A DNA stretch of 64,000 nucleotides from Candidatus Latescibacterota bacterium (GCA_965204375.1 OZ241986.1:2304001-2368000), one strand, 5' to 3'; counted from the stretch's first letter, positions 2,360-62,900 are shown. A program made the numbers and translations. Notes: generated by a model not told the origin, from the sequence alone.

Positions 2360-2554
2360 AGTGGTACTCTCAAAATCGCTCACATCCTGCCATGAATCAT
2401 TCATCAAAGCGGTAACAGTTCTGGGACCACCGTCAATTGCCAGATCAGACATTTTTCCGATCCTCTCAATGGGCGAGTTTATGCGATATATCACAATATA
2501 GTGCAAGTCAGTCTCATAAAGCAATCTATCTCGACATTTAAGTTGAGTAAAAAT

Positions 2555-3084: not shown

Positions 3085-3098
3085 TGATATGCCTCCTA

Positions 3099-4946: not shown

Positions 4947-4958
4947 TTGGAGAATAGC

Positions 4959-10377: not shown

Positions 10378-10430
10378 GGGGTTAGACACAACTTATTTGA
10401 AATACCATTGAGTATTTGGAGGTATATGAC

Positions 10431-20596: not shown

Positions 20597-20608
20597 AAAG
20601 GAGCCTTT

Positions 20609-41900: not shown

Positions 41901-44900
41901 GATCGTCGCACTGCCATTCTCCGCATCGTCATCCGCAACCCCACTCACTGTCACTGTCTGTGCTGTGCTCCAATTGCTTGAGGTAAATGTCACAGTCGCT
42001 GGGGACACTGTCGCCACACTTACCGCACTACTCCTCGCGCTCACCGTTACATTACCACCCGGCTTACTGCTCAGTTTCAGCGTATAGGTCTTGCTCGAAC
42101 CCTCATTTATCGTCAGACTGGTTGGATTGACTACCACACCTGCCGTCTCGTCATCAGTTACGGATACCGCTACCTGATCCGCTGTGGTCACAGAGCCGTA
42201 TCCACTCACCGTATGACTGATCGTAGCACTGCCATTGTCTGCATCGTCATCCGAAACCCCGCTCACCGTCACTGTCTGCGCTGTGCTCCAATTGCTTGAG
42301 GTGAATGTCACAGTCGCAGGGGACACTGTCGCCACACTTACCGCACTACTCCTCGCACTCACCGTCACAGTCCCACCTGGCTGACTGCTCAGTTTCAACG
42401 TATAGGTCTTACTCGAACCCTCACCCACTGTCAGCGTCTTGGGGTCAACCACCACACCCGCCATGTCGTCATCCGTAATCGTCAGTGACGTCCCATTCAC
42501 CGTCAGACCTGTGGCACTGCCACCCACCGAAACCGTCTCATTACCCTCCGCAACTGAATCGTCCGTCGGACTAATTGTAAACGTCCCGCTACCACTTGTA
42601 TTCCCCGATGCTATCGTCACCGTCACATCAGACACAGTACCATAGTCCGTGCCCTCCGTGGCACTGTCACTACCATCCCCTATCGAGACTATCACCGTCG
42701 TCGCCACCGTCCTGGCAGATTCATTCAATGTCGCTGTCACGCTCACTGTCGTCGCGCTGTCATCTTCACCAACCGACGAGGGAGATACAGACAAAGACAC
42801 CTCGGTCGAAGCCGTATCATCATCCGTCACAGACACCGCTACTTGATCCGCTGTGGTGACAGAGCCATACCCACTCACCGTATGACTGATCGTAGCACTG
42901 CCATTCTCCGCATCATCGTCAGCAACCCCGCTCACTGTCACCGTCTGCGCTGTGCTCCAATTGCTTGAGGTGAACGTCACAGTCGCAGGGGACACTGTCG
43001 CCACACTTACCGCACTACTCCTCGCACTCACCGTCACATTTCCACCCGGCTTACTACTCAGTTTCAACGTATAGGTATTCGTGTTGCCCTCACCCACTGT
43101 CAACGTCTTCGGATCAACCACCACACCCGCCGTCTCGTCATCAGTTACGGATACCGCTACTTGATCCGCTGTGGTCACAGAGCCATACCCACTCACCGAA
43201 TGACTGATCGTGGCACTGCCATTGTCTGCATCGTCATCCGCAACCCCGCTCACCGTCACTGTCTGCGCTGTGCTCCAATTGCTTGAGGTGAATGTCACAG
43301 TCGCAGGGGACACTGTCGCCACACTTACCGCACTACTCCTCGCACTCACCGTCACATTACCACCCGGCTTACTGCTCAGTTTCAGCGTGTAGGTATTCGT
43401 CGATCCCTCATCCACTGTCAGCGTCTTGGGGTCAACCACCACACCTGCCATGTCGTCATCCGTAATCGTCAGTGACGTCCCATTTACCGTCAGACCTGAC
43501 GTGCTACCATCCACCGAAACCGTCTCATTACCCTCCGCAACTGAATCGTCCGTCGGCGTAATTGTAAACGTCTCGCTACCACTCGTCTGACCCGATGAGA
43601 TCGTCACCGTCACATCAGACACAGTACCATAGTCCGTGCCCTCCGTTGCACTGTCACTGCCAGAACCCACGCTCACCGTCACCGTCGTCGCCACTGTCCG
43701 GACAGATTCATTCAACGTCGCTGTCACGCTCACTGTCGTTGCAGAATCATCCTCACCAACCGACGAGGGAGATACAGACAATGTCACCTCAGTCGAAGCC
43801 GTATCATCATCAGTAACAGACACCGCTACCTGATCCGCTGTGGTCACAGAGCCATACCCACTCACCGTATGACTGATCGTCGCACTGCCATTCTCCGCAT
43901 CACCGTCTTGAACCCCACTCACTGTCACCGTCTGCGCATCACTCCAATTGCTGGAAGTGAACGTCACAGTCGCAGGGGACACTGTCGCTACACTTATCGC
44001 ACCACTCCTCGCACTCACCGTTACATTTCCACCAGGCTTACTGCTCAGTTTCAACGTGTAAGTCTTCGTCGATCCCTCACCTACTGTCAGACTGGTTGGA
44101 TTGACAACCACACCTGCCGTCTCGTCATCGGTAACAGACACCGCTACCTGATCCGCTGTGGTTACGCTACCATACCCACTCACCGAATGACTGATCGTAG
44201 CACTGCCATTGTTTGCATCATCATCCGAAACCCCACTCACCGTCACTGTCTGCGCATCACTCCAATTGCTGGAAGTGAACGTCACAGTCGCTGGGGACAC
44301 TGTCGCTACACTTATCGCACTACTCCTCGCACTCACCGTTACATTTCCACCAGGCTTACTGCTCAGTTTCAACGTGTAAGTCTTCGTCGATCCCTCACCT
44401 ACTGTCAGACTGGTTGGATTGACAACCACACCTGCCGTCTCGTCATCGGTAACAGACACCGCTACCTGATCCGCTGTGGTTACGCTACCATACCCACTCA
44501 CCGAATGACTGATCGTAGCACTGCCATTGTTTGCATCATCATCCGAAACCCCACTCACCGTCACTGTCTGCGCATCACTCCAATTGCTGGAAGTGAACGT
44601 CACAGTCGCTGGGGACACTGTCGCTACACTTATCGCACTACTCCTCGCACTCACCGTTACATTTCCACCTGGCTTACTGCTCAGTTTCAACGTGTAGGTA
44701 TTCGTGCTACCCTCATCCACTGTCAGCGTCTTCGGATCAACCACCACACCTGCCGTCTCGTCATCAGTTACGGTGATGTCCACAGAGTCCACTGTCAGGC
44801 TGGACGAATACTTGCTATCACTGCTGGTGGACTGATGACTGATCGTAGCACTGTCGTTGTCTGCATCATCGTCCGCAACCCCACTCACTGTCACTGTCTG

Positions 44901-47900
44901 CGCTGTGCTCCAATTGCTTGACGTGAATGTCACAGTCGCAGGGGACACTGTCGCCACACTTATCGCACTACTCCTCGCACTCACTGTCACATTTCCACCT
45001 GGCTTACTGCTCAGTTTCAAGGTGTAGGTATTCGTGCTGCCCTCATCCACTGTCAGCGTCTTCGGATCAACCACCACACCTGCCATGTCATCATCCGTCA
45101 CAGACACCGCCACCTGATCCGCTGTGGTCACAGAGCCATACCCACTCACTGTATGACTGATCGTAGCACTGCCATTGTCTGCATCATCATCCGCAACCCC
45201 ACTCACCGTCACCGTCTGTGCTGTGCTCCAATTGCTGGAAGTGAATGTCACAGTCACTGGGGACACTGTCGCCACACTTATCGCACTACTCCTCGCACTC
45301 ACCGTCACATTTCCACCCGGCTCACTGTTCAGTTTCAAGGTGTAGGTATTCGTGCCACCCTCACCCACTGTCAGACTGGTTGGGTCAACCACCACACCTG
45401 CCGTCTCGTCATCGGTCACAGACACCGCCACTGAGGCCACTGTCAGGCTGGACGAATACTTGCTATCACTGCTGGTGGACTGATGGCTGATCGTCGTACT
45501 GCCATCCTCTGCATCATTGTCTTGAACCCCGCTCACCGTCACTGTCTGTGCATCACTCCAATTGCTGGAAGTGAACGTCACAGTCGTTGGGGACACTGTC
45601 GCCACACTTACCGCACCACTCCTCGCACTCACCGTCACATTCCCACCTGGCTGACTGCTCAGTTTCAGCGTGTAGGTCTTACTCGAACCCTCACCCACTG
45701 TCAGGCTGGTTGGGTCAACCACCACACCTGCCTCATCGTCATCAGTGACGGATACCGCCACCTGATCCGCTGTGGTCACGGAGCCATACCCACTCACCGT
45801 ATGGGTAATCGTGGTATTGTCGTTGTCTGCATCATCGTCCGCAACCCCACTCACTGTCACTGTCTGTGCATCACTCCAATTGCTTGAGGTGAATGTCACA
45901 GTCACTGGCGATACTGTCGCCACACTTACCGCACTACTCCTCGCACTCACCGTCACATTTCCACCTGGCTGACTGCTCAGTTTCAAGGTGTAGGTATTCG
46001 TGCTACCCTCACCCACTGTCAACGTCTTGGGATCAACCACCACACCTGCCATGTCGTCATCCGTAATCGTCAGTGACGTCCCATTCACCGTCAGACCTGT
46101 GGCACTGCCACCCACCGAAACCGTCTCATTACCCTCCGCAACTGAATCGTCCGTCGGACTAATTGTAAACGTCCCGCTACCACTTGTCTGACCCGATGAT
46201 ATCGTCACCGTCACATCAGACACAGTACCATAGTCCGTGCCCTCCGTTGCACTGTCACTACCATCCCCTATCGAGACTATCACCGTCGTCGCCACCGTCC
46301 GGGCAGATTCATTCAATGTCGCTGTCACACTCACCGTCGTCGCGCTGTCATCTTCACCTACCGACGAGGGAGATACAGACAACGCCACCTCGGTCGAAGC
46401 CGTATCATCATCCGTCACAGACACCGCCACCTCATCTGCTGTGGTGACAGACCCATACCCACTCACCGAATGACTGATCGTCGCACTGCCATTGTCTGCA
46501 TCATCGTCAGCAACCCCGCTCACTGTCACCGTCTGCGCTGTGCTCCAATTGCTTGAGGTGAATGTCACAGTCGCTGGGGACACTGTCGCCACACTTGTCG
46601 CACTACTCCTCGCGCTCACCGTTACATTACCACCAGGCTTACTGCTCAGTTTCAACGTGTAAGTCTTCGTCGATCCCTCACCTACTGTCAGACTGGTTGG
46701 ATTGACCACCACACCTGCCGTCTCGTCATCGGTAACAGACACCGCTACCTGATCCGCTGTGGTCACGGAGCCATACCCACTCACCGTATGACTGATCGTC
46801 GCACTGCCATTGTTTGCATCATCATCCGAAACCCCACTCACTGTCACTGTCTGCGCATCACTCCAATTGCTTGAGGTGAATGTCACAGTCGCAGGGGACA
46901 CTGTCGCTACACTTATCGCACTACTCCTCGCACTCACCGTTACATTACCACCAGGCTTACTGCTCAGTTTCAACGTGTAGGTATTCGTGTTGCCCTCACC
47001 CACTGTCAACGTCTTCGGATCAACCACCACACCTGCCATGTCGTCATCGGTAATCGTCAGCGACGTCCCATTCACCGTCAGACCTGACGTGCTACCACCC
47101 ACCGAAACCGTCTCATTCCCCTCCGCAACTGAATCATCACTCGGCGTAATTGTAAACGTCCCGCTACCACTTGATGAACCAGCGGCTATGGTCACTGTAA
47201 CATCCGCCACAGTACCATAGTCCGTGCCCTCCGTCGCACTGTCATTGGTAGCCCCTATCGAGACTGTCACTGCCGTCGCGCCGGGCAGTGCTGACCCGTT
47301 CAACATTGCCTTCACACTCACCGTCTGAGCACCACCATCCTCTGTCACAGCACTCGGATTCAGACTCAATCCTATCCCGGTCGGTGCCGCATCATTATCC
47401 ATGATTTTCAGATCCGCACTCGTCACTGTGAAACCCGACGCCGTGCCATTGACTGAAACCTTTTCTTCTCCTTCCGCTATCCCATCATCACTCGGCGTAA
47501 TGGTAAATGTCCCGGTACTACTTGACGAATTAGCTGCTATCGTCACCGTGACGTCATTCACTGATGCGTAGTCCGTGCCCTCCGTTGCACTGTCACTGGT
47601 AGTCCCTATTGAGACTGTCACCGTCGTCGCAGCAGGCAGGGTCACACTGCCTGATATTGTCGCTGTCACTGTCACAGTCGTCGCGCCAGCACCTTCACCT
47701 ACCATTGCAGGTGACAAAGACAGACGAATGCCTGTCGGTGCTGTGTCATTGTCGGTAATTGTACCCGTCGCCTCAAGCGTGTTTCCGCCACCTGAAAGCG
47801 TCGCATTCACCGCATTGCTCAACGTCACCTTAAATGTCTCATTACCCTCATATATCGTGTCATCACTGATCGTCACACTAATCGCCTGGCTCAACCCATC

Positions 47901-50900
47901 CCCTGAACTGAACGTCACACGACCATCCGTCACTGCTGTATAGTCCTTACCCGCCTCTGCCGTTCCATCCACTGTCACCCAACTCACCGTCACGGCCTTG
48001 CTACTCGACACACTCAAACCCACCGTAAACGTCATCGTACCTGCATTCTCAGCAGCACTCGCATTACCGATGCTCAGCACAGGCACTGTGGTTTCTGTAA
48101 TGTTCACCACCACACTTGAAGCCGTCTTACCACTATAGTCTCCCGTGCTGCTGACACTATGCCTAATCGTCACTTTATCATCCACCACCGCATCGTTGTC
48201 CGTAGCCACGCTCACCGTCACCGTCTGTGCTGTGCTCCAATTGGTCGTCGTGAACGTCACAGTTGTTGGACTTGCCGACACATCTGTCCCTGTTGGCACG
48301 CTCACTCCAACCGTCACTGACGCTGTCGGCTCAGAATCCAGCACCACCGTATAGGTCTTGCTCGAACCCTCATTTATCGTCAGACTGGTTGGGTCAACCG
48401 TCACGCCTGCTGTCTCGTCATCCGTCACAGACACGGCCACCGAGGCCACTGTCAGGCTCGACGAATACTTGCTATCGCTGCTGGAAGACTGATGGCTGAT
48501 CGTCGCACTGTCATTGTTCGCATCATCGTCCGCAACCCCACTCACTGTCACCGTCTGTGCATCACTCCAATTGCTTGAGGTGAATGTCACAGTCGCTGGG
48601 GACACTGTCGCAACACTTATCGCGCTACTACTCGCACTCACCGTCACATTTGTTGAAGGCTTACTGCTCAGTTTCAACGTATAGGTATTCGTGCTGCCCT
48701 CATCCACTGTCAGCGTCTTCGGGTCAACCTCCACGCCCGCCATGTCGTCATCGGTAATCGTCAGCGACGTCCCATTTACCGTCAGACCTGATGTGCTACC
48801 ACGCACCGAAACTGTCTCATCCCCTTCTGCAACTGAATCATTCACCGGACTAATCGAAAACGTCCCTTCACCACTCGTCTTCCCCGATGATATTGTTACC
48901 GTGATCGCGGCCACTGCCCCATAATCGGCAGGCGAAGTCGCCGTCCCATCAGACACACTCACCGTCACGGCCGTCGCGCCGGGCAGTGCTGAACCATTCA
49001 GCATCGCCTTCACGGTCACCGTCTGAGCACCACCATCCTCTGTCACAGCACTCGGATTCAGACTCAAAACGATACCTGTCGGTGCCGTGTCATTATCCAT
49101 GATTTTCAGATCTGCACCCGTCACATCAAGGCCGGTAGCAGAGCCGTTCACTGAGACCTTCTCTTCTCCTTCCGCGATCCCATCGTCACTCGGCGTTATG
49201 GTAAACGTCCCGCTACCACTTGACGAATTAGCTGCTATCGTCACTGCCACATCCGACACAGCACCATAGTCTGTACCTTCTGTTGCACTGTCACTGCCAT
49301 CACCCACGCTCACTGTCACCGTCGTCGCATCAGGTAGTGTCACACTGCCTGATATTGTCGCTGTCACTGTCACCGTCGTCGCGCCGTCACCCTCACTAAC
49401 CATCGCAGGCGACAAAGACAGACGAACACTCATCGGTGCGGTGTCATTGTCTGTAATTGTGCCCGTCGCTTCAAGCGTGGACCCGCCACCAGACAGCGTC
49501 GCATTCACCGCATTGCTCAATGTCACCTTGAACGTCTCGTTACCCTCAGCTATATTATCATCGCTGATCGTCACACTCACGGTCTTGCTCAGCGCATCCC
49601 CTGAACTAAACGTCACACGACCATCCGTCACTGCCGTATAATCCTTGCCCGCCTCTGCCGTCCCATCCGTAGTCGCCCAACTCACCGTCACGGCATCACT
49701 ACTCGCCACACTCAAACTCACCGTAAACGTCAGCGTCCCTGCACCCTCAGCAGCACTCGCATTACCGATGCCCAACACAGGCACTGTGGTTTCTGTGATA
49801 CTCACCACCACACTTGAAGCCGTCTTACCATTATAGTCACCTGTGCTGCTGACACTATGCGTAATCGTCACCTGTGCATCCGCCACCGCATCAGCATCCG
49901 CAGCCACGCTCACCGTCACCGTCTGTGCTGTGCTCCAGTTATCCGCTGTGAAGGTCAGACTCGTCGGACTCGCTGACACATCCGTCCCTGTCGGCACGCT
50001 CACACCAACCGTCACTGACGCTGTTGGCTTAGAGGTCAGTTTCATCGTATAGATCTTACTCGCACCCTCATTCACTGTCAGACTGGTTGGGTCAACCGTC
50101 ACACCAGTCGTCTCGTCATCAGTGACGGATACCGCCACTGAGGCCACTGTCAGACTGGACGAATACTTGCTATCACTGCTGGTGGACTGATGGCTGATCG
50201 TCGCACTTTCATTGTTTGCATCATCATCCGAAACCCCACTCACCGTCACCGTCTGTGCTGTGCTCCAATTGCTTGAGGTGAATGTCACAGACCCTGGCGA
50301 TACTGTCGCCACAGCCAGCGCACTACTGGTCGCCGTTACCGTCACATTACCGCCTGGCTGGCTGCTCAGTTTCAATGTGTAGGTATTCGTAGAACCCTCA
50401 TCCACTGTCAGCGTCTTCGGAGAAACCACCACGCTGGCCGTCTCGTCATCGTTCACGGTGATGGTCACAGAATCCACTGTCAGACTGGATGAATACTTGC
50501 TATCGCTACTGGACGACGAATGACTGATCGTCGCACTGCCATTGTTTGCATCATCATCCGCAACCCCACGCACCGTTACCGTCTGCGCCGTGCGCCAATT
50601 GGTCGTCGAGAACGTCACAGTCGCTGGGGACACCCTCGCCACATCTGTAGCATTACTGCTCGCACTCACTGTCACATTACCACTTGGCTGGCTGCTCAGC
50701 TTCAACGTGTAGGTATTCGTTGATCCCTCATTCACTGTCAGACTGGCTGGGTCAACCACCACACCTGCCATGTCGTCATCCGTAATCGTCAGCGACGTTC
50801 CATTCACCGTCAGACCTTCCGTCGAACCCGTCACCGAAACCGTCTCATTACCCTCCGCAACAGAATCATCATTCGGCGTAATCGTAAACGTCTCTTCACC

Positions 50901-53900
50901 ACTTGTCTTCCCCGATGATATCGTCACCGTGACGTCATTCACAGATGCATAGTCCGTGCCCTCCGTCGCACTGTCATTGGTAGCCCCTATCGAGACTGTC
51001 ACCATCGTCGCCACGGTCCGGGCATCTGCATTCAGACTCGCTGTCACTGTCACTGTCGTCGCAGAATCATCCTCACCAACCGACGAGGGTGATACAGACA
51101 ACGCCACCGAACTGGATGCTGTATCATCATCCCTTAGCGTCAAACTCGCTGTCCCGCCAGTCAAACCTTCCGTCGAACCCGTCACCGAAACTGTCTCATC
51201 CCCTTCCGCTACTGAATCATTCACTGGACTAATTGAAAACGTCCCTTCACCACTTGTCTGACCGGCTGCTATCGTCACCGTCACATCCGACACAGCACCA
51301 TAGTCCGTGCCCTCTACTGCACTGTCATTGGTAGCCCCTATCGAGACTGTCACTGTCGTCGCATTAGGCAGTGCTGACCCGTTCAACATTGCCTTCACAC
51401 TCACCGTCTGAGCACCACCATCTTCTGTCACATGACTCGGACTCAGACTCAATCCTATCCCGGTCGGTGCCGCATCATTATCCATGATTTTCAGATCCGC
51501 ACCCGTCACTGTGAAACCCGACGCCGTGCCATTGACTGAAACCTTTTCTTCTCCTTCCGCGATCCCATCATCACTCGGTGTGATCGTAAACGTCCCGCTA
51601 CCACTCGACGAATTAGCTGCTATCGTCACCGTCACATCAGACACAGCACCATAGTCCGTGCCCTCTACTGCACTGTCACCCACATTACCCACACTCACCG
51701 TTACCGTCGTTGCACCCGGCAGGGTCACACTCCCATCTATTGTCGCTGTCACTGTCACCGTCGTTGCGCCGTCACCTTCACCAACCATCGCAGGCGACAA
51801 AGACAGACGAACACTCATCGGTGCTGTGTCATTGTCTGTAATTGTGCCCGTCGCTTCAAGCGTCGCCCCTCCACCTGATAGCGTCGCATTCACCGCATTG
51901 CTCAACTTCACCTTGAACGTCTCGTTACCCTCAGCTATCGTATCATCGCTGATTGTCACACTAATCGCCTGACTTAGCCCATCCCCTGAACTAAACGTCA
52001 CACGACCATCTGTCACTGCCGTATAGTCCTTGCCCGCCTCGGCTGTCCCATCCGCTGTCACCCAACTCACCGTCACGGCATCACTACTCGCCACACTCAA
52101 ACTCACCGTAAACGTCAGCGTCCCTGCACCCTCAGCAGCACTCGCATTACCGATGCCCAACACAGGCACTGTGGTTTCTGTGATACTCACCACCACACTT
52201 GAAGCCGTCTTACCATTATAGTCACCTGTGCTGCTGACACTATGCGTAATCGTCACCTGTGCATCCGCCACCGCATCAGCATCCGCAGCCACGCTCACCG
52301 TCACCGTCTGTGCTGTGCTCCAGTTATCCGCTGTGAAGGTCAGACTCGTCGGACTCGCTGACACATCCGTCCCTGTCGGCACGCTCACACCAACCGTCAC
52401 AGACGCTGTTGGCTCAGAGGTCAGTTTCACCGTATAGGTCTTGCTCGCACCCTCATTTATCGTCAGACTGGTTGGGTCAACCGTCACGCCTGCTGTCTCG
52501 TCATCCGTCACAGACACGGCCACCGAGGCCACCATCAGGCTGGACGAATACTTGCTATCACTGCTGGAAGACTGATGGCTGATCGTCGCACTGTCATTGT
52601 TCGCATCATCGTCCGCAACCCCGCTCACTGTCACCGTCTGTGCATCACTCCAATTGCTTGAGGTGAATGTCACAGTCGCTGGAGACACTGTCGCCACACT
52701 TACCGCACCACTGGTCACCGTTACCGTCACATTTCCACCTGGCTGACTGTTCAGTTTCAGCGTGTAGGTATTCGTGCTACCCTCATCCACTGTCAGCGTC
52801 TTGGGGTCAACCACCACACCTGCCATGTCGTCATCCGTAATCGTCAGTGACGTCCCATTCACCGTCAGATCTGTGGCACTGCCACCCACCGAAACCGTCT
52901 CATTACCCTCCGCAACAGAATCATTCACTGGACTAATCGTAAACGTCACCTTACCACTCGTCTGACCCGCTGTGATCGTCACCGTCACATCCGACACAGT
53001 ACCATAGTCCGTGCCCTCTACCGCACTGTCACCGGTAGCTCCGACAGACACCGTCACCGTCGTTGCATCAGGCAGTATCGACCCTGAAAGCGTTGCCGTC
53101 ACTGTCACAGTCGTTGCGCCGTCACCCTCACCTACCATATCAGGCGACACAGACAGACGAACACCTGTCGGTGCTGTGTCATTGTCTGTAATCGTCAGCT
53201 CCGTTCCGTTCACCGTAAGAGAGGACGAACCCGTCACTGAAACCGTCTCATCCCCTTCCGCTATCGAATCATCATTCGGCTTAATCGTAAACGTCCCCGT
53301 ACTACTTGTCAGACCCGATGCTATCGTCACCGTCACATCCGACACGGCACTATAGTCCGTGCCCTCCGTTGCACTGTCACTGCCAGAACCCACGCTCACC
53401 GTGACCGTCGTCGCCACTGTCCGCGCATCTGCATTCAACGTCGCTGTCACACTCACCGTCGTCGCGCCGTCACCCTCACCAACCGACGAAGGAGATACAG
53501 ACAACGCCACCTCAGTCGAAGCCGTATCATCATCACGGATGTCGATCTCGATCTGGTTTCTATCGGAGATGCTTGCCGAAACTTCGCTGTTGACAAGTGC
53601 CATCTGCAGATGAAGCGTCTCAGTCTCCTCGTAGAGGTTGTCCCCAATAATGGTGATCTCACAGCTATCTGCACTGTCGGTCAGGATGCAGTTGCCGAGT
53701 GTGAAATCGTCCTCTGTGGCGGTGCTGGTGTTGTTTCGCGTGAAACTGAGCTCTATGTCACCCTCCCACGCCTTGTCCGCGTTTACCGGGAATCGGCGTA
53801 ATTGATCTGTGTCCGTTTCGTTAAGCGTCACTTTGGTGCCCCTGGATAACGTGACTACTTCGCTTCTGTCCGTTATCTTGACCATAAACCTTGCGTCTTG

Positions 53901-56900
53901 GGGATGAGGTGTGTAGCCGTCTCCGGGTTCGATAGTGATTAATATGTATTCCGGCGGCTCTATGACTTCGTCATCGCAGACCACGATCTGGAATTGGATA
54001 GAAGTTACTCCCATGCCCACAGACGCTCCCTCGACCATCACGATATCTACTCCACCATCGCTGCAACTACCAGTGGTTACAGCGGTGGCGAGTCTCTTGC
54101 CCGGCGAGGGAACCGCCTTCAATTTGACAATGGCTGAGGACAACTGTATGCCGGTACTGAAGTCTAACGCGATGGTAAACGATTGATCTCTTTCCGTCAC
54201 TCCTTCGATCACCTCCAACGAGGTATCCGTGAAGGAGACCGTGGGCGGTCCTTCATCGTCATCATTAATGGTTCCGGTCGCCAATTGCCTTTTGTAGTTA
54301 GTGTTCCCAGTTATGTTACTCAGCGTCAGCCTCAGCGTCTCGGACGCCCCTTCATTGAAAGTGTCGCCCGTCACCATCACGACCACGTCCATCGCGGATA
54401 CGCCCGGATTGAACGTCAGTGTACCTCTCCCCGCCGTGTAGTCCACGCCCGCCTTCGCCGTGCCGTCGCTCGTCGCCCATTCCACCATGGTTTCCCTGTC
54501 CGCCGGAGGCGACAGCGTCACCGTAAACACCAACTCGGTCTCGCCCGCGTCGCCCTCGGTCACCTCGGCATCCGCCACAGAGAACGCCGAAATGCCCTCG
54601 TCGTCAATCACCGTCACTGTCACCGCGCCGCTCACCATAGCATAGTCGCCCCCACTCGCCCCATGGACGATATTCGCCGTGCGGTCCGACGCGTTATCTA
54701 CATTGTCGTCCGTCCCCATCACCGTCACCGTCTGCGCTGTGTTCCAGGCGTCCGTCGCAAACGTCAGTGAGGTGGGGGTGACACGCGCCACAGCATTGTC
54801 TTCCGAGCTGACCGAGACCGTCACTTCCGCCGTGGGCTTCGACGTCAATGCCACCGCGTAGGTCGCCGTATTCATCGCACCCGATGCCTCTGTCACCGTC
54901 ACGCTCTGCGGCGACAGCGCGAGACCACGCTCGTCGTCGTCGATAATCGTACCCGTCGCGCTCGCCGTGCCGAGTGTGGCACCCCCAGTCGGGTTACTCA
55001 GCGTCACTGTCACCGCCTCGTTGTCCTCGTCAATCTCATCGCCATACACCGACACCGTCACCGCCTTCTCGGTCTCGCCCGCAGCGAAATTCTTTGAGCT
55101 GATCCTCGCTATGTAGTCCAGCCTCGCCTTCGCCGTGCCGTCGCTCGTCGCCCAGTCCACCCTGGTTTCCCTGTCCGCCGGAGGCGACAGCGTCACCGTA
55201 AACACCAACTCGGTCTCGCCCGCGTCGCCCTCCATCACCTCGGCATTCGCCACAGAGAACGCCGAGATGTCCTCGTCAATCACCGTCACTGTCACCGCGC
55301 CGCTGACCATAGCATAGTCGCCTCCACTCGCCACATGGACGATATTCGCCGTGCGGTCCGACGTGTTATCTACGTTGTCGTCCGTCCCCATCACCGTCAC
55401 CGTCTGCGCTGTGTTATAGCCGTCCGTCGCAAACGTCAGTGAGGTGGGAGTGACACGCGCCACAGCATCGTCTTCCGAGCTGACCGATACCGTCACCTCC
55501 GCCGTGGGTTGCGATGTCAACGCCACCGTGTAGGTCGCCGTGTGCATCGCACCCGATGCCTCTGTCACCGTCACGCTCTGCGGCGACAGCGCGAGACCGC
55601 GCTCGTCGTCGTCAATGATTGAGATGACCGCAATGGAATCTGCGCTTACGGTATAAGGCGCATAGGGTATTTCGGAGAGCTTGAGATAGATGGTCTCGGT
55701 GTCCTCTTTTTCGTCGTCACCCTTGATGGTGATGTCGAAGGAAACGGAGGTCTGTTGCGCGGACAGTTCGAGCGACCGGGATGGTAGGGTGTAGTCGGTA
55801 TCGAGGGTGGCTGTGCTTTCAGAACCAATATTGATGGTAACCGTGCTGGCCTCGGTCTGTGCCGGATTGATGTTCACCGTGAGGCTCAAGGTCGCGTCGC
55901 TGTCGGTCTCTGTGTGGCGATATGTGGTTTCGTCCCAACTGACATCGTATGAGCAAGTCGTGCCTGAGAATCTATGGATTTTCCCCGCCCAAGTCTGGAA
56001 CTCCATGTCTGCAGGTACACACAGCCCGGAGTTCCAGATACTCATTTGAAATAATTGCTTCAGTGCCGTGAACGTCCGGGGTAGTGGGCCCGACAACTTG
56101 TTGTTGGGGAGATTCAGGCGCCGCAGCTTGGACAGGTTGCCCAACTCTGATGGAATTGACCCCGACAAAGTGTTGGTACCGAGATGCAGGCTCGTCAGAT
56201 TGGACAGACCGCCCAACTCTGATGGAATTGACCCCGACAAAGTGTTGGCGCTGAGATTCAGGCTCGTCAGATTGGACAGGTTGCCCAACTCTGTTGGAAT
56301 TGACCCCGACAAAGCGTTGTTGGAGAGATCCAGACTCGTCAGATTGGACAGGTTGCCCAACTCTGTTGGAATTGACCCCGACAAAGCGTTGCGGGCGAGA
56401 TCCAAGCTCGTCAGATTGGACAAGCTACCCAACTCTGTTGGAATCGTCCCCATCAAATTGTTGTCGGAGAAGAACTCGAGTTGGGTGACCCGATTTTGTG
56501 AAACTTTGACGCCTTCCCAGTCGCTGATGGGTTTACTGTCATCCTTCCAGTTGGTGTTTCTATGCCAGTTCGCTCCATCGGTCGCATCGTAAAGCGCGAT
56601 CAGCGCCGCCCGGTCAGGGGACGCATCATCATCCTCTATCGTGACCGTCACACTGGCTGAACCCACAGTGTAAGGGGCATCGGCAATGGCCGAAAGGGTG
56701 AGAATGAAGACCTCTTCAAGCTCGTAGATGTCGTCACCCTTGATCGTGACGTCAAAAGTGGTGCTCTCAGTGTTTGCAGACAACATGAGGGACGTGCTGG
56801 AAACTGTGTAATCGCTCGTGCTGCTGGCGTGGTTGACGCCCGTCTGCGTGCTCTGCCCAGCACTCACGTTGACCGTACTGGCCTCGGTCAGTGCCGGGCT

Positions 56901-59900
56901 GATATTCACCGTGAGGCTCAAGGTCGCGTCGCTGTCGGTCTCTGTGTGGCTATATGTGGTTTCGTCCCAACTGACACTGACATCGCGGCAGGTCTGACCT
57001 CTGTAGGTCCCGATTTCCCCCACCCAGTTCCGGAACTCGGTGTCTGCAGGTACACACAGCCCGGCGTTCCCTCTGATTCTCAGAATATTGAGGCTCAGTG
57101 CCGTGAACGCCCGGGGAAGTGGGCCCGTCAACTCGTTGGCGGAGAGATCCAGGCTCAGCAGATTGGACAGGTCGCTCAGTTCTGTTGGAATCGTCCCCGA
57201 CAAAGCGTTGCGGGCGAGATTCAGGCTCGTCAACTTGGACAGGCTACCCAGCTCTGATGGAATTGACCCCGACAAAGCGTTGCCGTGGAGACTCAGGCTC
57301 GTCAGATTGGACAGATCGCCCAACTCTGATGGAATCGTCCCCGACAAAGCGTTGTTGGAGAGATCCAGGCTCGTCAGATTGGACAAGCTACCCAACTCTG
57401 TTGGAATCGTCCCCATCAAATTGTTGTTGGAGAGCCGGATTGTGGTGACCCGATTGTCCCGTGAAACCTGGACGCCTTCCCAGTCGCTGATGGGTTTACC
57501 TTCATCCTTCCAGTTGGTGTTTCTATGCCAGTTCGCTCCACCGGTCGCATCGTAAAGCGCGATCAGCGCAGCCCGGTCAGGGGACGCATCATCATCCTCT
57601 ATCGTGACCGTCACACTGGCTGAACCCACAGTGTAGGGGGCATCGGCAATGGCCGAAAGGGCGAGAATGAAGACCTCTTCAAGCTCGTAGATGTTGTCAC
57701 CCTTGATCGTGACGTCAAAAGTGGTGCTCTCAGTGTTTGCAGGCAACACGAGGGACGTGCTGGAAACTGTGTAATCGCTCGTGCTGATAGCGTGGTTGAC
57801 GCCCGTCTGCGTGCTCTGCCCAGCACTCACGTTGACCGTACTGGCCTCGGTCAGTGCCGGCCTGATATTCACCGTGAGGCTCAAGGTCGCGTCGTTGTCG
57901 GTCTCTGTGTGGCTATATGTGGTTTCGTCCCAACTGACATCGCGGCAGGTCTGACCGCTGTAGGTCAGGATTTCCCCCACCCAGTCCCGGAACTCCATGT
58001 CTGTAGGTACACACAACCCGGCGTTCGAGTTGATATCCAGATTAATAATGAGGTCCAATTTCGTGAACGCCCGGGGAAGTGGGTCCGTCAATTCGTTGTT
58101 GGAGAGAAAGAGGCTCCGCAGCTTGGACAGATTGCCCAATTCTGATGGAATTGACCCCGACAAAGCGTTGTTGGAGAGACCCAGGTGCCGCAGCTCGGAC
58201 AGGTTGCCCAATTCTGATGGAATTGACCCCGACAAAGCGTTGTTGGAGAGATTCAGGTACGTCAGCTTGGACAGGTTGCCCAATTCTGATGGAATTGACC
58301 CCGACAAATTGTTCTTGTTGAGTTCCAGGTACGTCAGCTCGGACAGGCTGCCCAACTCTGATGGAATCGTTCCTCTCAAATTGTTGCTGGAGAGAAAGAG
58401 GTTGGTGACCCGATTTTGTGAAACGGTGACGCCATACCAGTCGTTGATGGGTTTACTATCATCCTTCCAGTTGGTGTTATTCGACCAGTTTGCTCCACCG
58501 GTCGCATCGTAAAGCGCGATCAGCGCCGCCCGGTCAGGGGACGCATCGTCATCCACGATCGTCAGCGTTGATGACACGACACTCAGCCCCGACGCACTGC
58601 CACTCACTGAAACGGTCTCATTTCTTTCAAAAGACGAATCGTTTGTCGGCGTGATCGTGAACGTCCCTGTCCCACTCGTCTGACCCGCAGCAATTGTCAC
58701 CGTGACATCTGACACGGCACCATAGTCCGTACCCTCCGTTGCACTGTCACCGGTAGCCCCTATCGAGACTATTACCGTCGTCGCCACCGTCCGCGCATCT
58801 GCATTCATCGTCGTTGTCACCGTGACCGTCGTCGCGCCGTCACCCTCACCCACTGACGATGGAGACACCGTCAAAGACACCGAACTGGAAGCCGTCTGGG
58901 CTTCTATCCGCTTCGTATCGTCATCCTTGATCGTCAGCGACATTATGTTCACCAGCAGACCCGGCGTCGAACCCGTCACCGTAACTGTCTCATCCCTTTC
59001 TGCAAACGAATCATCCACTGGCGTCAGCGTGAACGTCCCTGTTCCACTCTGCTGCCCCGCAGGAATCGTCACCGTGACATCTGACACCGCTCCGTAGTCC
59101 GCTGGCGAAGTCGCTGTCCCATCACCCACACTCACCGTCACTGCCGTGCTCTCATTCAGTGTCGTGCTCCCATCTATCGTCGCTGTCACCGTCACTGTCG
59201 TCGCGCCGTCACCCTCACCCACTATCGCAGGGGACAAAGACAGACGAACACTCGTCGGTGCGGTGTCATTGTCTGTGATTGTACCCGTCGCTTCAAGCGT
59301 CGTCGCGCCACCTGAAAGCGTCGCATTCACCGCATTGCTCAGCTTCACCTTAAATGTCTCATTACCCTCAGCTATGTTATCATCACTGATCGTCACACTC
59401 ACGGTCTTGCTCAACGCATCCCCAGCACTAAACGTCACGCGACCATCCGTCACTGCTGTATAGTCCTTGTCCGCCTCTGCTGTCCCATCCGCTGTCACCC
59501 AACTCACCGTCACGGCCTCACTACTCGCTACACTCAAACTCACCGTGAACGTCAGCGTACCGGCGTCCTCAACAGCACTCCCATTTTCTATACTCAGCAC
59601 GGGCACTATTGTCTCACTGATGCTCACCACCACGCTCTCAGCCATCTCACCACTATAGTCACCTGTGCTACTGACACTGTGCGTAATCGTCACTTGATCA
59701 TCCACCACGGCATCATCGTCCGTAGCCGCGCTCACCGTCACGGTCTGTGCGGTGTTCCAGTTATCCCCTGTAAATGTCAGACTCGCCGGACTCGCCGACA
59801 CATCCGTCCCTGTCGGCACGCTCACTCCAACTGTCACAGACGCTGTCGGCTCAGAGGTCAGCTTCAGTGTGTAGGTCTGCGTGCTCCCCTCATCCACCGT

Positions 59901-62900
59901 CAGACTGGTCGGAGCAACCAACACATTAGGCGTCTCGTCATCCGTTACAGATACCGCCACCTGATCCGCTGTGGTTACAGAACCATAACCACTTACCTCA
60001 TGGCTGATCGTCGCACTGCCATTCTCTGCATCATCGTCCTGAACCCCACTCACTGTTACCGTCTGTGCCTCATGCCAGTTGTCCGCTGTAAACGTCACAG
60101 ACATTGGGGACACTGTCGCAACACTTATCGCACCACTGCTCACCGTTACCGTCACATCGCCATCAGGCTGGCTGCTCAGCTTCAGCGTGTATGTACCAGT
60201 GTTGCCCTCACTCACCGTCAGACTCGTCGGAGCAACCAACACACCCGCCATGTCGTCATCCGTAATCGTCAACTCTATACCCGTCACTGTCAGACCCGAC
60301 GTGCTACCACTCACAGAAACTGTCTCATTCCCCTCCGAAACCGAATCATCCATTGGCGTCAGCGTGAACGTTCCTGTCCCACTCGTCTGACCCGCAGGAA
60401 TCGTCACACTGAAGTCATTCACCGCTCCGTAGTCCTCCGGCGAAGTCGCTGTCCCATCACCCACGCTCACCGTCACTGTCGTGCTCCCATTCAGTGTCGT
60501 ACTTCCATCTATCGTCGCTGTCACGGAAACCGTCGTTGCGCCATCACCCTCACCAACCACCGCAGGTGACAAAGACAGACGAACACCCGTCGGTGCTGCA
60601 TCGTCATCCGTGATTGTCCCGGTCGCTTCAAGCGTCGTCGCGCCACCTGAAAGCGTCGCATTCACCGCATTGCTCAGCCTCACCTTAAATGTCTCGTTAC
60701 CCTCAGCTATATTATCATCACTGATCGTCACACTCACGGTCTTGCTCAACGCATCCCCAGCACTGAACGTCACGCGACCATCCGTCACTGCTGTATAGTC
60801 CTTGCCTGCCTCTGCTGTTCCATCCTCAGTCGCCCATGTCACTGTCACTGCCTCTCTACTCGCCACACTCAAACCCACCGTGAACGTCAGCGTACCGGCG
60901 TCCTCAACAGCACTCCCATTTTCTATATTCAGCACGGGCACGGTTGTCTCACTGATGCTCACCACCACGCTCTCAGCCATCTCACCACTATAGTCACCTG
61001 TGCTACTGACACTGTGCGTAATCGTCACCTGATCATCCACCACGGCATCATCGTCCGTAGCCGCACGCACCGTCACCGTCTGTGCCTCGTTCCAATTATC
61101 TGCTGTGAATGTCAGACTCGTCGGACTTGCCGACACATCTGTCCCTGTCGGCACTGTCACTTCAACTGTCACAGACGCTGTCGGCTCAGAGTTCAGTTTC
61201 ACAGTGTATATGCCAGTGTTCCCCTCATCCACCGTCAGGCTGGTCGGAACAACCAAAACGCCAAGCGCCTCGTCATCCGTTACAGATACCGCCACCTGAT
61301 CCGCTGTGGTTACAGAACCATAACCACTTACCTCATGGCTGATCGTCGCACTGCCATTCTCTGCATCATCGTCCTGAACCCCACTCACTGTTACCGTCTG
61401 TGCCTCATGCCAGTTGTCCGCTGTAAACGTCACAGAACCTGGGGATATTGTCGCAACATCTATCGCACCACTGCTCACCGTTACCGTCACATCGCCACCC
61501 GGCTGACTGCTCAGTTTCAAGGTGTAGGTCTGCGTTGCACCCTCATCCACCGTCAGGTTGGTCGGATTGACAACCACACCAGTCGTCTCGTCATCGGTGA
61601 CAGATACCGCCACAGGATCCGCTGTGGTCACGCTGCCATAACCACTCACCTCATGACTGATCGTAGCACTGCCATTATCCGCATCATCGTCCTGAACGCC
61701 AGCCACTGTCACCGTCTGCGCATCCTTCCAATTGTCCGGCGTGAATGTCAAAGACTCTGGGGATACTGTGGCTACACTTGCAGCACCACTACTCGCACGC
61801 ACCGTCACATCGCCACCTGGCTGACTGCTCAGTTTCAACGTGTACGTACCAGTGCTCCCCTCACCCACCGTCAAGCTGGTCGGAGCAACCAACACACCTG
61901 CCATGTCGTCATCCGTAATCATCAGCGATGTTCCATTCACCGTCAGACCTGACGTGCTACCACTCACCGAAACTGTCTCATTCTCCTCCGAAACCGAATC
62001 ATCACTCGGACTAATCGTAAACGTACCGCTACCACTTGACGAATTAGCTGCTATCGTCACCGTCACATCAGACACTGTGCCATAGTCTGTACCCTCCGTC
62101 GCACTGTCGCCCACATCACCCACAGACACCGTTACCGTCGTCGCGCCTACCAGTGTCGTACTTCCATCTATCGTCGCTGTCACGGAAACCGTCGTTGCGC
62201 CATCACCCTCACCAACCATATCAGGAGACACAGACAGACGAACACCCGTCGGTGCTGCATCGTCATCCGTGATTGTCCCGGTCGCTTCAAGCGTTGTCTC
62301 ACCACCGCTCAGCGTCGCATTCACTGCATTACTCAGCCTCACCTTAAATGTCTCGTTACCCTCAGCTATATTATCATCACTGATCGTCACACTCACGGTC
62401 TTGCTCAACGCATCCCCAGCACTAAACGTCACGCGACCATCCGTCACTGCTGTATAGTCCTTGCCTGCCTCTGCTGTTCCATCCGCTGTCACCCAACTCA
62501 CCGTCACTGCCTCTCTACTTGCCACACTCAAACCCACTGTGAAACTCAGCGTCCCTGCACCCTCAGCAGCACTCGCATTACCGATGCTCAGCACGGGCAC
62601 TATTGTCTCACTGATGCTCACCACCACACTCTCAGCCATCTCACCACTATAGTCACCTGTGCTACTGACACTGTGCGTAATCCTCACCTGATCATCCACC
62701 ACGGCATCATCGTCCGTAGCCGCGCTCACCGTCACGGTCTGTGCGGTGTTCCAGTTATCTGCTGTGAATGTCAGACTCGTCGGACTTGCCGACACATCCG
62801 TCCCTGTCGGCACGCTCACTCCAACTGTCACAGACGCTGTCGGCTCAGAGTTCAGTTTCACAGTGTATATGCCAGTGTTCCCCTCATCCACCGTCAGGCT

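What the first reader, a model, noticed from the sequence alone, without database searches (positions are those of the whole stretch)
55950..58545. LRR modules with hypervariable concave-face codons: candidate diversified receptor on a giant stalk
Seen: the 72-bp LRR units are nearly identical in their backbone, but the exposed x positions of xxLxLxxN differ between units. Changes fall at codon positions 1-2 while position 3 is mostly fixed. One site reads GAT/AAT/CAT/AGT/GGT/TTT, the next TCC/GCC/AGC/CCC/CAC/AAC, the next AAC/CGC/GCC/ACC/GGC/AGC; exceptions are GAA, CGG, GGT and AAG. The same variant block (CTC GCC CGC AAC, LARN) occurs at different ranks in modules 2 and 3, and unit number differs between modules. 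Known: these positions form the ligand-binding face of LRR receptors, and NNY variation of AAY codons is the signature of diversity-generating retroelements. Inference: strong diversifying selection with unit shuffling (analogous to lamprey VLRs), or template-directed mutagenesis, produces a variable binding surface. No reverse transcriptase or template repeat is visible in this window.
Basis: partly seen in the sequence, partly recalled or inferred. Interest (0 to 1): 0.85.

Follow-up and report, generated by a model that had tools for sequence, protein, structure and literature searches.

The report
Fast-evolving LRR heads on giant adhesin
Three plant-type leucine-rich-repeat binding modules inside a roughly 14,000-residue bacterial surface protein have near-identical repeat backbones but rapidly changed ligand-facing residues, which looks like ordinary positive selection on duplicated repeats rather than a programmed diversity generator.

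Summary
On the minus strand, window 55947-58544 encodes three LRR modules of 5, 5 and 6 units of 24 residues, each with an N-cap and a Cys-pair C-cap. They lie in one ORF of about 14,040 aa. Backbone codons are shared down to synonymous choice, while codons 8, 10 and 11 vary at nt1 and nt2 but rarely at nt3 (16, 11 and 3 of 30).

Concave-face dN exceeds dS about 3-6 fold by pairwise, star-tree and parsimony counts.

The DGR and VLR readings fail. The genome's only two reverse transcriptases are group II intron maturases. There is no template repeat or silent cassette: nothing outside the gene exceeds 75% identity over 100 bp or more. Mismatches are not adenine-specific.

The pattern is family-wide. 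Omega exceeds 1 at the concave codons in 26 of 30 LRR arrays from relatives, most strongly in the youngest arrays.

Best reading: unit and module duplication or homogenisation, plus positive selection on binding surfaces. This is the mode known from plant R genes and fungal repeats of high internal conservation.

Variation within a population could not be tested, because the read-mapping tool did not complete.

The parts
22560..64000 (-). Giant ORF. It runs off the window; in the genome it continues to window-equivalent position 64835. There are 14,091 codons between stops. Candidate ATG starts give about 14,040-14,060 aa, followed by a signal-peptide-like MSLRWALVALALLLDANPAAA.
   Evidence: Pfam finds Calx-beta in 18 + 4 + 9 stretches plus LRR families. 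The signal peptide is read by eye and is an inference.
57939..58544 (-). LRR module 1: N-cap (ASPDRAALIALYDATGGANW...), 5 LRR units at 58059-58418, and a C-cap with a Cys pair.
   Evidence: Pfam LRR_1/LRR_8/LRR_14.
57588..57938 (-). Calx-beta domain CB1, between modules 1 and 2.
   Evidence: Pfam Calx-beta. Nearly identical to CB2: dS 0.025, dN 0.026.
56982..57587 (-). LRR module 2: N-cap, 5 LRR units at 57099-57458, and C-cap.
56625..56981 (-). Calx-beta domain CB2, between modules 2 and 3. Together with the following N-cap it forms a direct repeat of about 480 bp, 96-98% identical to the copy 963 bp away.
   Evidence: exact runs up to 71 bp.
55947..56624 (-). LRR module 3: N-cap, 6 LRR units at 56064-56495, and C-cap. 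This is the module that was modelled.
   Evidence: AlphaFold2 pLDDT 95.3, pTM 0.92. The listed matches are almost all plant LRR receptor ectodomains or related plant LRR proteins.
22563..23915 (-). C-terminal 451 residues: a probable autotransporter-like beta-barrel anchor. The protein ends in ...YRQQF.
   Evidence: Pfam Autotransporter PF03797, E 5.1e-5, 23.6 bits, below the 26-bit cut-off. The AF2 model has low confidence (pLDDT 43.9) but shows helices followed by at least 12 long strands. Homologous domains end giant ORFs in 17 of 20 other genomes of the genus.

Best explanation
The region encodes three ligand-binding heads of the plant-specific LRR type. Each has an N-cap, 5-6 units of 24 residues and a disulphide-type C-cap. 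They are spaced by Calx-beta domains at about residues 2,050-2,910 (counted from the ATG that precedes the signal peptide) of a secreted protein of about 14,040 residues. That protein consists mostly of Calx-beta/Ig-like repeats and probably ends in an outer-membrane beta-barrel, so the heads would sit near the distal end of a very long fibre.

The heads arose by tandem duplication at two scales: 72-bp units and a 963-bp super-repeat of module plus Calx-beta. They are kept similar by unequal crossing-over or gene conversion. This explains why synonymous codon choices are shared across units.

On this young, homogeneous background, positive selection has replaced the residues that point out of the concave beta-sheet (unit positions 6, 8, 10, 11). 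The three heads therefore now offer different binding surfaces.

Shown: the anatomy, the fold, the excess of non-synonymous change at the concave codons, and the absence of DGR or cassette machinery. Inferred: adhesin function, membrane anchoring, recombination as the homogenising process, and selection rather than an unknown targeted mutator as the cause. Diversification is read as evolutionary, between paralogous units, and not as programmed.
For: Anatomy and fold
- Anatomy.
- Fold: AF2 pLDDT 95.3. DSSP places a strand at unit positions 6-8 in units 2 to 6 and a second strand at 13-16 in units 2 to 5. The listed Foldseek matches are almost all plant LRR receptor ectodomains or related plant LRR proteins (MIK2, FLS2, ERL1/2, PGIP, SERK1, BIR3), with TMq up to 0.87 and 23-45% identity.

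Shared ancestry of the backbones
- Codons are position-specific: TTG at Leu-14 in 16 of 16 units, CTC at Leu-9 in 15 of 16, TCC at Ser-2 in 13 of 13.
- All-codon dS among the internal units is only 0.19.

Selection
- Pairwise: dN 1.06 at codons 8, 10, 11 against all-codon dS 0.19. For the classical xxLxLxx x-set 5, 6, 8, 10, 11, dN/dS is 3.5. For the backbone it is 0.06.
- Star tree from the consensus: pN 0.40 against pooled pS 0.096 (4.2-fold, Fisher p 3e-8). N:S changes are 29:1 at the hypervariable codons and 28:18 elsewhere (p 3e-4).
- Parsimony: 24-25 N and 1 S changes at the hypervariable codons, against 18.5-20.5 N and 14.5-15.5 S elsewhere.
- Third bases of the hypervariable codons change no faster than synonymous sites elsewhere (pS 0.14 against 0.17). 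Old neutral divergence would not give this.

Duplication dynamics
- CB1 and CB2 are almost identical (dS 0.025), while the LRR units between them have dS 0.13-0.21 and saturated concave codons.
- Direct repeats of about 480 bp at 96-98% identity lie 963 bp apart.
- Internal units are mostly nearest to neighbours in their own module.

Generality
- In 30 LRR arrays from relatives, omega at codons 6, 8, 10, 11 exceeds 1 in 26, with p<0.01 in 9. It is highest where synonymous divergence is lowest (L007: pS 0.03, omega 15.6; L004: pS 0.19, omega 3.6).
Against: - No orthologue or second strain was found, so all selection tests compare paralogous units inside one gene. Recombination among units violates the tree used for parsimony, and the units are not independent, so the p-values are indicative only.
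- The set 8, 10, 11 was chosen after seeing the data. The a-priori sets give lower but still >1 ratios.
- Only about 7-10 non-synonymous and about 19 synonymous sites per unit are involved.
- LRR synonymous divergence (0.13-0.21) is higher than that of the flanking Calx-beta (0.025). The history is therefore heterogeneous, and 'time since duplication' is not a single number.
- The array in this genome's own large paralogue (23 units at C1:5.314-5.316 Mb) shows omega 1.2, not significant. 4 of 30 relatives' arrays show omega below 1.
- The anchor assignment is weak: the Pfam score is below the cut-off and the model has low confidence.
- No ligand is known.
- The concave residues of the three heads are mostly small and polar (S, N, D), which gives no clue to specificity.
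Confidence: 0.7

Rival explanations
1. Ongoing repeat exchange of the kind seen in fungal repeats of high internal conservation and in TAL effectors. Units and whole modules are reshuffled, duplicated and deleted by homologous recombination often enough that strains or cells in one population carry different heads. The gene would then be a contingency-type, fast-switching adhesin locus. This extends the best explanation rather than contradicting it.
For: - Direct repeats of about 480 bp at 96-98% identity, with exact runs up to 71 bp, lie 963 bp apart and flank a whole module.
- 72-bp units are 74-92% identical.
- Unit number differs between modules, and LARN sits at different ranks.
- Internal units group within modules.
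- A relative (L007) has 11 units whose codons 14-24 are identical at every base apart from one substitution in codon 20 of one unit, with identical units recurring at ranks 1, 3 and 6. Its two modules differ in unit number.
Against: - No population data could be obtained.
- Internal units average 75% amino-acid identity. This is below the 85% used to define high internal conservation in fungi (PMC4986451, passages read).
- There is no sign of exchange between loci: other LRR genes of the same genome are 75% identical or less over 100 bp or more.
- A 24-nt backbone word present 5 times in the window has 0 hits in the metagenome contig collection. That collection may leave out near relatives.
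Confidence: 0.2
2. Relaxed constraint plus gene conversion, without positive selection. The x positions are simply free to drift, while conversion keeps resetting the backbone, so dS is artificially low and dN/dS is inflated.
For: - Conversion or unequal crossing-over is evidently active.
- In older arrays of relatives omega tends towards 1.
- The non-concave x positions (2, 3, 5, 13, 15, 17, 20, 21, 24) have omega about 1.
Against: - Drift cannot exceed omega 1, yet three methods give 3-6.
- Conversion tracts would have to skip nt1-2 but include nt3 of the same codons: nt3 differs in 3 of 30 cells, against 16 and 11 of 30 for nt1 and nt2.
- Synonymous divergence inside the hypervariable codons equals that elsewhere.
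Confidence: 0.07
3. A diversity-generating retroelement: an error-prone reverse transcriptase copies an AAY-rich template repeat and writes NNY codons into the LRR units.
For: Variation is concentrated at nt1-2 of codons whose consensus is AAT or AAC at two of the three sites. This resembles the codon pattern described for DGR targets (PMC10907252, passages read).
Against: - A whole-genome RVT_1 search finds 2 matches, both RT + Intron_maturas2 + HNH of 561 and 635 aa, at 1.65 and 3.94 Mb and so far from the gene.
- No copy of the LRR DNA outside the gene exceeds 75% identity over 100 bp or more.
- 25-41% of mismatches fall on A for any module taken as template, and 16-25% on T.
- 24 of 75 differences from the unit consensus are at A, and 7 of 16 A positions never vary, including the Asn-12 AAC.
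- The most variable codon, 10, has consensus TCC, with no A.
- The fold is LRR, not the C-type lectin fold in which the VR most often lies (PMC10907252).
- Variation is between paralogous units, not between a VR and a TR.
Confidence: 0.01
4. VLR-like assembly: an incomplete germline gene is completed by copying units from silent LRR cassettes.
For: LRR units with variable concave residues and variable unit number resemble the products of lamprey VLR assembly. This is a resemblance recalled from general knowledge, not a test.
Against: - The gene is a complete open frame.
- A six-frame scan finds LRR units at only 5 loci in the genome. 4 are other genes, one of them a pseudogene with 2 TAG stops, and all are at 75% nucleotide identity or less.
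- No cassette arrays flank the gene (the ORF list of window positions 1-23000, on the gene's 3' side, holds no further LRR frames by the scan).
Confidence: 0.01

Closest known systems
Plant LRR receptor ectodomains, receptor-like proteins, PGIPs and R-gene LRRs (plant-specific LRR class)
   Same: - A 24-residue unit with LxxLxLxxNxLsGxIPxxLG.
- N- and C-terminal caps.
- A second strand at LsGx.
- The listed solved-structure matches are almost all plant LRR proteins, mostly receptor ectodomains.
- Hypervariable, positively selected xxLxLxx positions on a conserved scaffold. For plants this is recalled knowledge, not read here.
   Different: - Bacterial.
- No kinase or transmembrane segment.
- Embedded three times in a Calx-beta fibre of about 14,000 residues.
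- Pfam LRRNT_2 did not match the N-cap at E<=0.01.
- Selection is seen between units of one gene, not between alleles or paralogous genes.
Fungal NLR repeats with high internal conservation (HET-D/E WD40; ANK and TPR)
   Same: Near-identical tandem repeats, concerted evolution, varying repeat number, and positive diversifying selection on a few residues of the interaction surface (PMC1805685 abstract; PMC4986451 passages).
   Different: - The repeat type is LRR, which those authors did not find in fungal NLRs (PMC4986451 abstract).
- The protein is an extracellular adhesin-like fibre, not a cytoplasmic STAND NTPase.
- Internal units are 75% identical, not over 85%.
- No exchange between loci was detected.
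- Allelic polymorphism was not tested.
Diversity-generating retroelement targets
   Same: Variation falls at the first two codon positions of Asn-type codons on a binding surface.
   Different: No DGR reverse transcriptase, no template repeat, no adenine specificity and a different fold.
Lamprey variable lymphocyte receptors
   Same: A capped LRR solenoid with variable concave residues and variable unit number.
   Different: No silent cassettes and a complete germline gene. Somatic assembly is neither expected nor seen.
Giant repetitive bacterial surface adhesins with a C-terminal autotransporter-type barrel
   Same: A signal-peptide-like N-terminus, a long array of beta-sandwich repeats, and a C-terminal domain with a weak PF03797 match ending in an aromatic residue.
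   Different: - Size (about 14,040 aa).
- Plant-type LRR heads inserted in the stalk.
- The barrel assignment is below the Pfam cut-off and is not confirmed by the model.

Membership tests
Leucine-rich repeat, plant-specific (PS) class | Tandem units of 24 residues with LxxLxLxxNxL followed by xGxIPxxLxx | tested here: met
   16 units with consensus LSNLTSLNLSNNALSGSIPSELGN. Pfam LRR_1 E 4.1e-49, LRR_8 E 1.6e-39, LRR_14 E 3.3e-32, all above their cut-offs.
Leucine-rich repeat, plant-specific (PS) class | Curved solenoid fold with a concave beta-sheet, closest to plant LRR ectodomains | tested here: met
   AF2 pLDDT 95.3, pTM 0.92, with strands at unit positions 6-8 and 13-16. The listed Foldseek hits are almost all plant LRR proteins, with E values down to 5.5e-15.
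Leucine-rich repeat, plant-specific (PS) class | Plant-type N-terminal cap (Pfam LRRNT_2, PF08263) | tested here: inconclusive
   PF08263 is not among the 12 families matched at E<=0.01. A helical cap is modelled (H5-16). Some homologues carry a precomputed PF08263 annotation.
Diversity-generating retroelement | DGR-type reverse transcriptase in the genome | tested here: not met
   2 RVT_1 matches in 6.34 Mb, both with intron maturase and HNH domains.
Diversity-generating retroelement | A template repeat matching the variable region at all non-adenine positions | tested here: not met
   blastn of the 2.6-kb region against the genome gives no hit outside the gene above 75% identity over 100 bp or more.
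Diversity-generating retroelement | Differences confined to template adenines | tested here: not met
   A fraction of mismatches is 0.25-0.41. 24 of 75 differences are at consensus A, and 7 of 16 A positions are invariant.
VLR-like cassette assembly | Arrays of silent donor LRR cassettes near an incomplete gene | tested here: not met
   5 LRR loci in the genome, none near-identical, and the gene is complete.
Repeats of high internal conservation with diversifying selection (fungal NLR type) | More than 85% identity between repeats over at least 100 residues (criterion of PMC4986451) | tested here: not met
   The internal units have a mean 75% amino-acid identity (range 58-92%); without codons 6, 8, 10, 11 it is 85%. 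The relative's array L007 has 91% mean nucleotide identity.
Repeats of high internal conservation with diversifying selection (fungal NLR type) | Positive selection on a few interaction-surface positions | tested here: met
   Omega 3.2-4.0 by parsimony, 4.2 by star tree, and 5.6 by pairwise comparison.
Repeats of high internal conservation with diversifying selection (fungal NLR type) | Repeat-number and sequence polymorphism between individuals | not testable with these tools
   The look-up of sequencing runs did not complete (11 tries). No second strain was found.
Autotransporter (type V secretion) | C-terminal beta-barrel domain (PF03797) | tested here: inconclusive
   E 5.1e-5, 23.6 bits, below the cut-off of 26. 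AF2 pLDDT 43.9.

The most novel reading that the evidence does not exclude
The capped plant-type LRR modules of this bacterial clade, including the three heads of this 14,000-residue fibre, form a rapidly diversifying recognition repertoire. Diversity would be generated by repeat exchange plus selection, without any retroelement. That would make it a bacterial, extracellular counterpart of fungal high-internal-conservation NLR repeats and of TAL-effector repeat shuffling. Unit and module composition would differ between cells or strains of one population.
Probability: 0.15. Interest if true: 0.7.

Novelty: new member of a known kind. Interest (0 to 1): 0.4.

Why it matters
The finding shows that the classical signature of LRR receptor evolution also operates in bacterial plant-type LRR modules. 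That signature is a scaffold conserved down to synonymous codons, with concave-face residues driven apart by selection. Here it is strong enough to mimic the NNY codon pattern of a diversity-generating retroelement. This is a useful caution for scans that call DGR targets from codon patterns alone.

The result also marks a large family as likely determinants of binding specificity on very long surface fibres. At least 7,933 database relatives score E<=1e-20 among the 8,000 candidates scored, and matches occur in 35 of the 41 genomes searched, this one included. If the heads vary between strains, the locus would be a tractable model for retroelement-free receptor diversification in bacteria.

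Tried and rejected
- DGR: rejected.
- VLR-like cassettes: rejected.
- Codon bias as the cause of the fixed third base: rejected. 18 of 21 four-fold codons at the hypervariable sites end in C, against 13% C across the gene.
- Close orthologues or strain variants, sought four ways. (1) genome search over 41 genomes: the best non-self match is 67% identical over about 150 residues. (2) metagenome contigs by protein: 27 pattern matches, none confirmed. (3) genome contigs: 3 distant loci at 46-52% identity. (4) The 5.8-billion-protein search: 7,933 of 8,000 scored candidates at E<=1e-20, with the best listed identity 56%. In addition, an exact 24-nt backbone word has 0 hits in metagenome contigs. 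These collections may leave out the window's own genome and near relatives.
- C-terminal anchor: the AF2 model has too low a confidence (pLDDT 43.9) to send to a fold search, so none was run on it.
- Literature. Searches for bacterial plant-type LRRs, for concerted evolution with positive selection in bacterial LRRs, and for LRR plus Calx-beta in symbionts returned no paper describing this pattern in bacterial LRR arrays. They did lead to the fungal analogue (PMC1805685, abstract and outline; PMC4986451, passages) and to a DGR reference (PMC10907252, passages). PMC7159879 and PMC8195603 were searched for passages on hypervariable repeats and gave nothing relevant. Supplements were not opened.
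Neighbouring genes (two sulfatases, a GWxTD protein, a TolB-like protein, PDH subunits) only indicate a diderm heterotroph.

Full report
ANATOMY

The finding lies on the minus strand, inside one enormous open frame.
- The ORF listing gives 22560-63998, open at the window's end.
- In the laid genome the frame continues to window-equivalent position 64835, with 14,091 codons between stops. Candidate ATG starts precede a signal-peptide-like MSLRWALVALALLLDANPAAA, giving about 14,040-14,060 residues. The signal peptide was read by eye.
- Pfam sees Calx-beta domains throughout (18, 4 and 9 stretches in three pieces) and LRR families only in the region of the finding.
- The last 451 residues match the Autotransporter beta-domain weakly (E 5.1e-5, 23.6 bits, cut-off 26).
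- An AlphaFold2 model of those residues has low confidence (pLDDT 43.9). Its secondary structure is helices followed by at least 12 long strands.
- Related C-terminal domains (24-36% identity) end very long frames, up to 11,240 codons, in 17 of 20 other genomes of the genus.

I therefore read the protein as a probable outer-membrane-anchored fibre whose N-terminal part is distal. This reading is an inference.

Translation of 55500-59000 shows three modules:
- Module 1: 57939-58544.
- Module 2: 56982-57587.
- Module 3: 55947-56624.

Each module has an N-cap (ASPDRAALIALYDAT.GANW...NTNWKD...W.GV), then 5, 5 or 6 LRR units of 24 residues, then a C-cap with two cysteines. Calx-beta domains separate the modules, giving a super-repeat of 957-963 bp.

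An AlphaFold2 model of module 3, built on a 14-sequence alignment, has pLDDT 95.3 and pTM 0.92. It places a strand at unit positions 6-8 in units 2 to 6 and a second strand at positions 13-16 in units 2 to 5. The listed Foldseek matches in the PDB are almost all plant LRR receptor ectodomains or related plant LRR proteins: MIK2, FLS2, ERL1/2, PGIP, SERK1, BIR3 and SRF6, with TMq up to 0.87 and 23-45% identity. The modules therefore belong to the plant-specific LRR class.

THE OBSERVATION

Only TTC at codon 8 and GAC at codon 11 were missed.
- Among the 10 internal units, 13 of 24 codons are invariant as amino acids. Codons 8, 10 and 11 carry 2.4, 2.0 and 2.3 bits.
- Backbone codons are the same synonymous codon in nearly every unit: TTG at Leu-14 in 16 of 16, CTC at Leu-9 in 15 of 16, and TCC, TCG and TCA at three different Ser positions. 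The backbone therefore shares recent nucleotide ancestry, not just amino-acid constraint.
- At codons 8, 10 and 11, nt1, nt2 and nt3 differ from the consensus in 16, 11 and 3 of 30 cells.
- In four-fold boxes, 18 of 21 codons at these sites end in C, although only 13% of such sites in the whole gene do.
- LARN occurs in unit 4 of module 2 and unit 2 of module 3. Unit numbers are 5, 5 and 6.

SELECTION TESTS

Three counts agree.
1. Pairwise Nei-Gojobori over the 45 pairs of internal units:
   - dN 1.06 at codons 8, 10, 11, against dS 0.16 in those codons and 0.19 over all codons.
   - dN/dS 3.5 for the classical xxLxLxx x-set 5, 6, 8, 10, 11.
   - dN/dS 0.75 for the other x positions.
   - dN/dS 0.06 for the backbone.
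2. Differences from the consensus unit, i.e. a star tree:
   - 29 N and 1 S change at the hypervariable codons, against 28 N and 18 S elsewhere (Fisher p 3e-4).
   - pN 0.40 against pooled pS 0.096 (4.2-fold, p 3e-8).
3. Fitch parsimony on NJ trees:
   - 24-25 N and 1 S at the hypervariable codons, against 18.5-20.5 N and 14.5-15.5 S elsewhere.
   - For the a-priori concave set 6, 8, 10, 11, omega is 3.2 (binomial p 1.5e-4).

Caveats:
- The units are paralogues inside one gene.
- They recombine and are not independent.
- The number of sites is small.
- The set 8, 10, 11 was picked after seeing the data.

The key qualitative point survives these caveats. Third positions inside the hypervariable codons evolve at the synonymous rate, while the first two positions evolve several times faster. 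Old neutral divergence masked by gene conversion would not produce this.

DUPLICATION HISTORY
- The Calx-beta domains after modules 1 and 2 are almost identical (dS 0.025, dN 0.026). The LRR units between them have dS 0.13-0.21 and concave-codon dN 0.8-1.2.
- The near-identity block covers about 480 bp (Calx-beta plus N-cap) at 96-98% identity, with exact runs up to 71 bp. It stops where the LRR units begin.
- Internal units are mostly nearest to neighbours in their own module. First and last units are positional orthologues across modules.

This fits duplication and homogenisation at both the unit and the module scale. It also leaves long direct repeats that could mediate further gain or loss of a module.

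DGR AND VLR READINGS
- A whole-genome RVT_1 search finds two matches. Both are 561-635-residue proteins with intron-maturase and HNH domains, i.e. group II intron proteins, and they lie megabases away.
- blastn of the 2.6-kb region against the 6.34-Mb genome finds nothing outside the gene above 75% identity over 100 bp or more.
- A six-frame scan finds LRR units at only five loci.
- Whichever module is taken as template, only 25-41% of mismatches fall on its adenines.
- 24 of 75 differences from the unit consensus are at A. 7 of 16 A positions never vary, including the AAC of the invariant Asn-12. The most variable codon has consensus TCC.

[quoted passage not shown] The gene is complete, and there are no donor cassettes. 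Both mechanisms are rejected for this genome.

FAMILY CONTEXT
- The capped module is very common. It matches in 35 of 41 genomes searched, this genome included, and 7,933 of 8,000 scored database candidates reach E<=1e-20.
- No close relative of this gene exists in those sources. The best match is 67% identical over about 150 residues in related genomes. Results are 0 in metagenome contigs, 3 distant loci in genome contigs, at most 56% in the protein database, and 0 hits for an exact 24-nt backbone word.
- I applied the same parsimony count to 30 arrays from relatives: all LRR loci fetched. I left out L001-L003 and L014-L019, which are RT loci, the window's own region, or C-terminal-domain loci. 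Omega at codons 6, 8, 10, 11 is above 1 in 26 of 30 arrays, with p<0.01 in 9.
- The signal is strongest where synonymous divergence is lowest. In L007, from a genome of the same genus, 11 units share codons 14-24 at every base apart from one substitution in codon 20 of one unit, yet carry AGT, TTT or TGG at codon 8 (pS 0.03, omega 15.6).
- The signal fades towards 1 in old, saturated arrays. The large paralogue in this genome gives 1.2, which is not significant.
- The arrays were chosen by similarity to the query, not by their conservation. Units were pooled per locus and frame, so an array may span two modules.

The window's gene is thus a fairly young, but not extreme, example of a family-wide mode of evolution.

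MECHANISM AND RIVALS

My best reading (0.7) has three parts:
- The modules are binding heads on a giant fibre.
- They were produced and kept similar by tandem duplication and recombination.
- They were then differentiated by positive selection on the concave face.

A stronger version (0.2) is that exchange is frequent enough to make the locus polymorphic within populations, as in fungal repeats of high internal conservation (PMC1805685 abstract; PMC4986451 passages). It is compatible with all the data but untested, because the look-up of sequencing runs did not complete in 11 tries. Pure relaxation plus conversion (0.07) cannot give omega well above 1 or spare the third bases. DGR and VLR-type assembly are each near 0.01.

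COMPARISON AND NOVELTY

In function and evolution the modules behave like plant LRR receptors and, at the level of repeat dynamics, like the fungal WD/ANK/TPR repeats. They fail the 85% identity criterion of the latter (75% here), and no inter-locus exchange was seen.

My four literature searches did not find this pattern described for bacterial plant-type LRR arrays. The library is partial and supplements were closed, so I do not claim that it is unpublished.

I rate it a new member of a known kind, with interest 0.4. The signature is clean and recurrent, and it is a good decoy for DGR calls based on codon patterns. The mechanism it points to is a familiar one.

Noticed in passing
window 22560-64000 (-), continuing to 64835 in genome coordinates: The host gene is one of the longest bacterial ORFs one is likely to meet (about 14,040 aa). 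Genomes of the same genus hold further giant frames (up to 11,240 codons) that end in a related C-terminal domain at only 24-36% identity.
   Followed up: partly
window 56500-56976 and 57463-57939: Direct repeats of about 480 bp (Calx-beta plus LRR N-cap), 96-98% identical with exact runs up to 71 bp, lie 963 bp apart. They are an obvious substrate for gain or loss of a whole LRR module by homologous recombination.
   Followed up: partly
window 36559-47057: About 26-29 tandem copies of a 318-bp (106-residue) stalk repeat at 63-66% matches. Younger pairs lie at 25624-26252 (92%) and 31186-31824 (87%). The long-stalk pieces also gave summed Pfam scores to unrelated families (Nop10p, FhaA_N, Peptidase_S24) with no single stretch passing. 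I take these as repeat artefacts.
   Followed up: no
L007 (G004:C1:312481-316038), units at 1723-2298 and 3067-3282: In a secreted protein of 1,135-1,158 residues from a genome of the same genus, 11 LRR units share codons 14-24 at every base apart from one substitution in codon 20 of one unit. They differ by one to three bases at codon 8 (AGT, TTT, TGG) and at codons 6, 10, 11 and 13. Its two modules have different unit numbers, and identical units recur at ranks 1, 3 and 6.
   Followed up: partly
G000:C1:5314273-5316546 (outside the window): A second LRR gene in the same genome has at least 23 units. It has its own position-specific codons (CTT at Leu-4 and Leu-9, AAT at Asn-12). Its concave-site omega is about 1.2, not significant.
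   Followed up: partly
G000:C1:3902064-3902546 (outside the window): An LRR fragment interrupted by two TAG stops, with 55% amino-acid identity to the modules. It is probably a pseudogene and is too diverged to be a donor cassette.
   Followed up: no
L001 and L002 (G000:C1:1646401-1650204 and 3936847-3940584): Two group II intron-type reverse transcriptase/maturase/HNH genes are the only RVT_1 matches in the genome.
   Followed up: yes
window 2-22547: The neighbours of the giant gene include two arylsulfatase-like genes (4947-6383 and 17994-19436), a GWxTD/TPR protein (2-2524, minus strand), a TolB-like beta-propeller (10416-11564), an FGGY pentulose kinase (13219-14808), and pyruvate dehydrogenase E2 and E1-beta (19433-22547). 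No secretion or modification genes specific to the giant protein were seen.
   Followed up: no
window 56001-58000: GC skew on the + strand is +0.015 in the LRR region, against -0.19 to -0.32 in most other 2-kb bins of the giant gene. This is probably a consequence of amino-acid composition (Leu/Asn/Ser against Thr/Val/Asp/Gly) rather than foreign origin. It was not tested.
   Followed up: no
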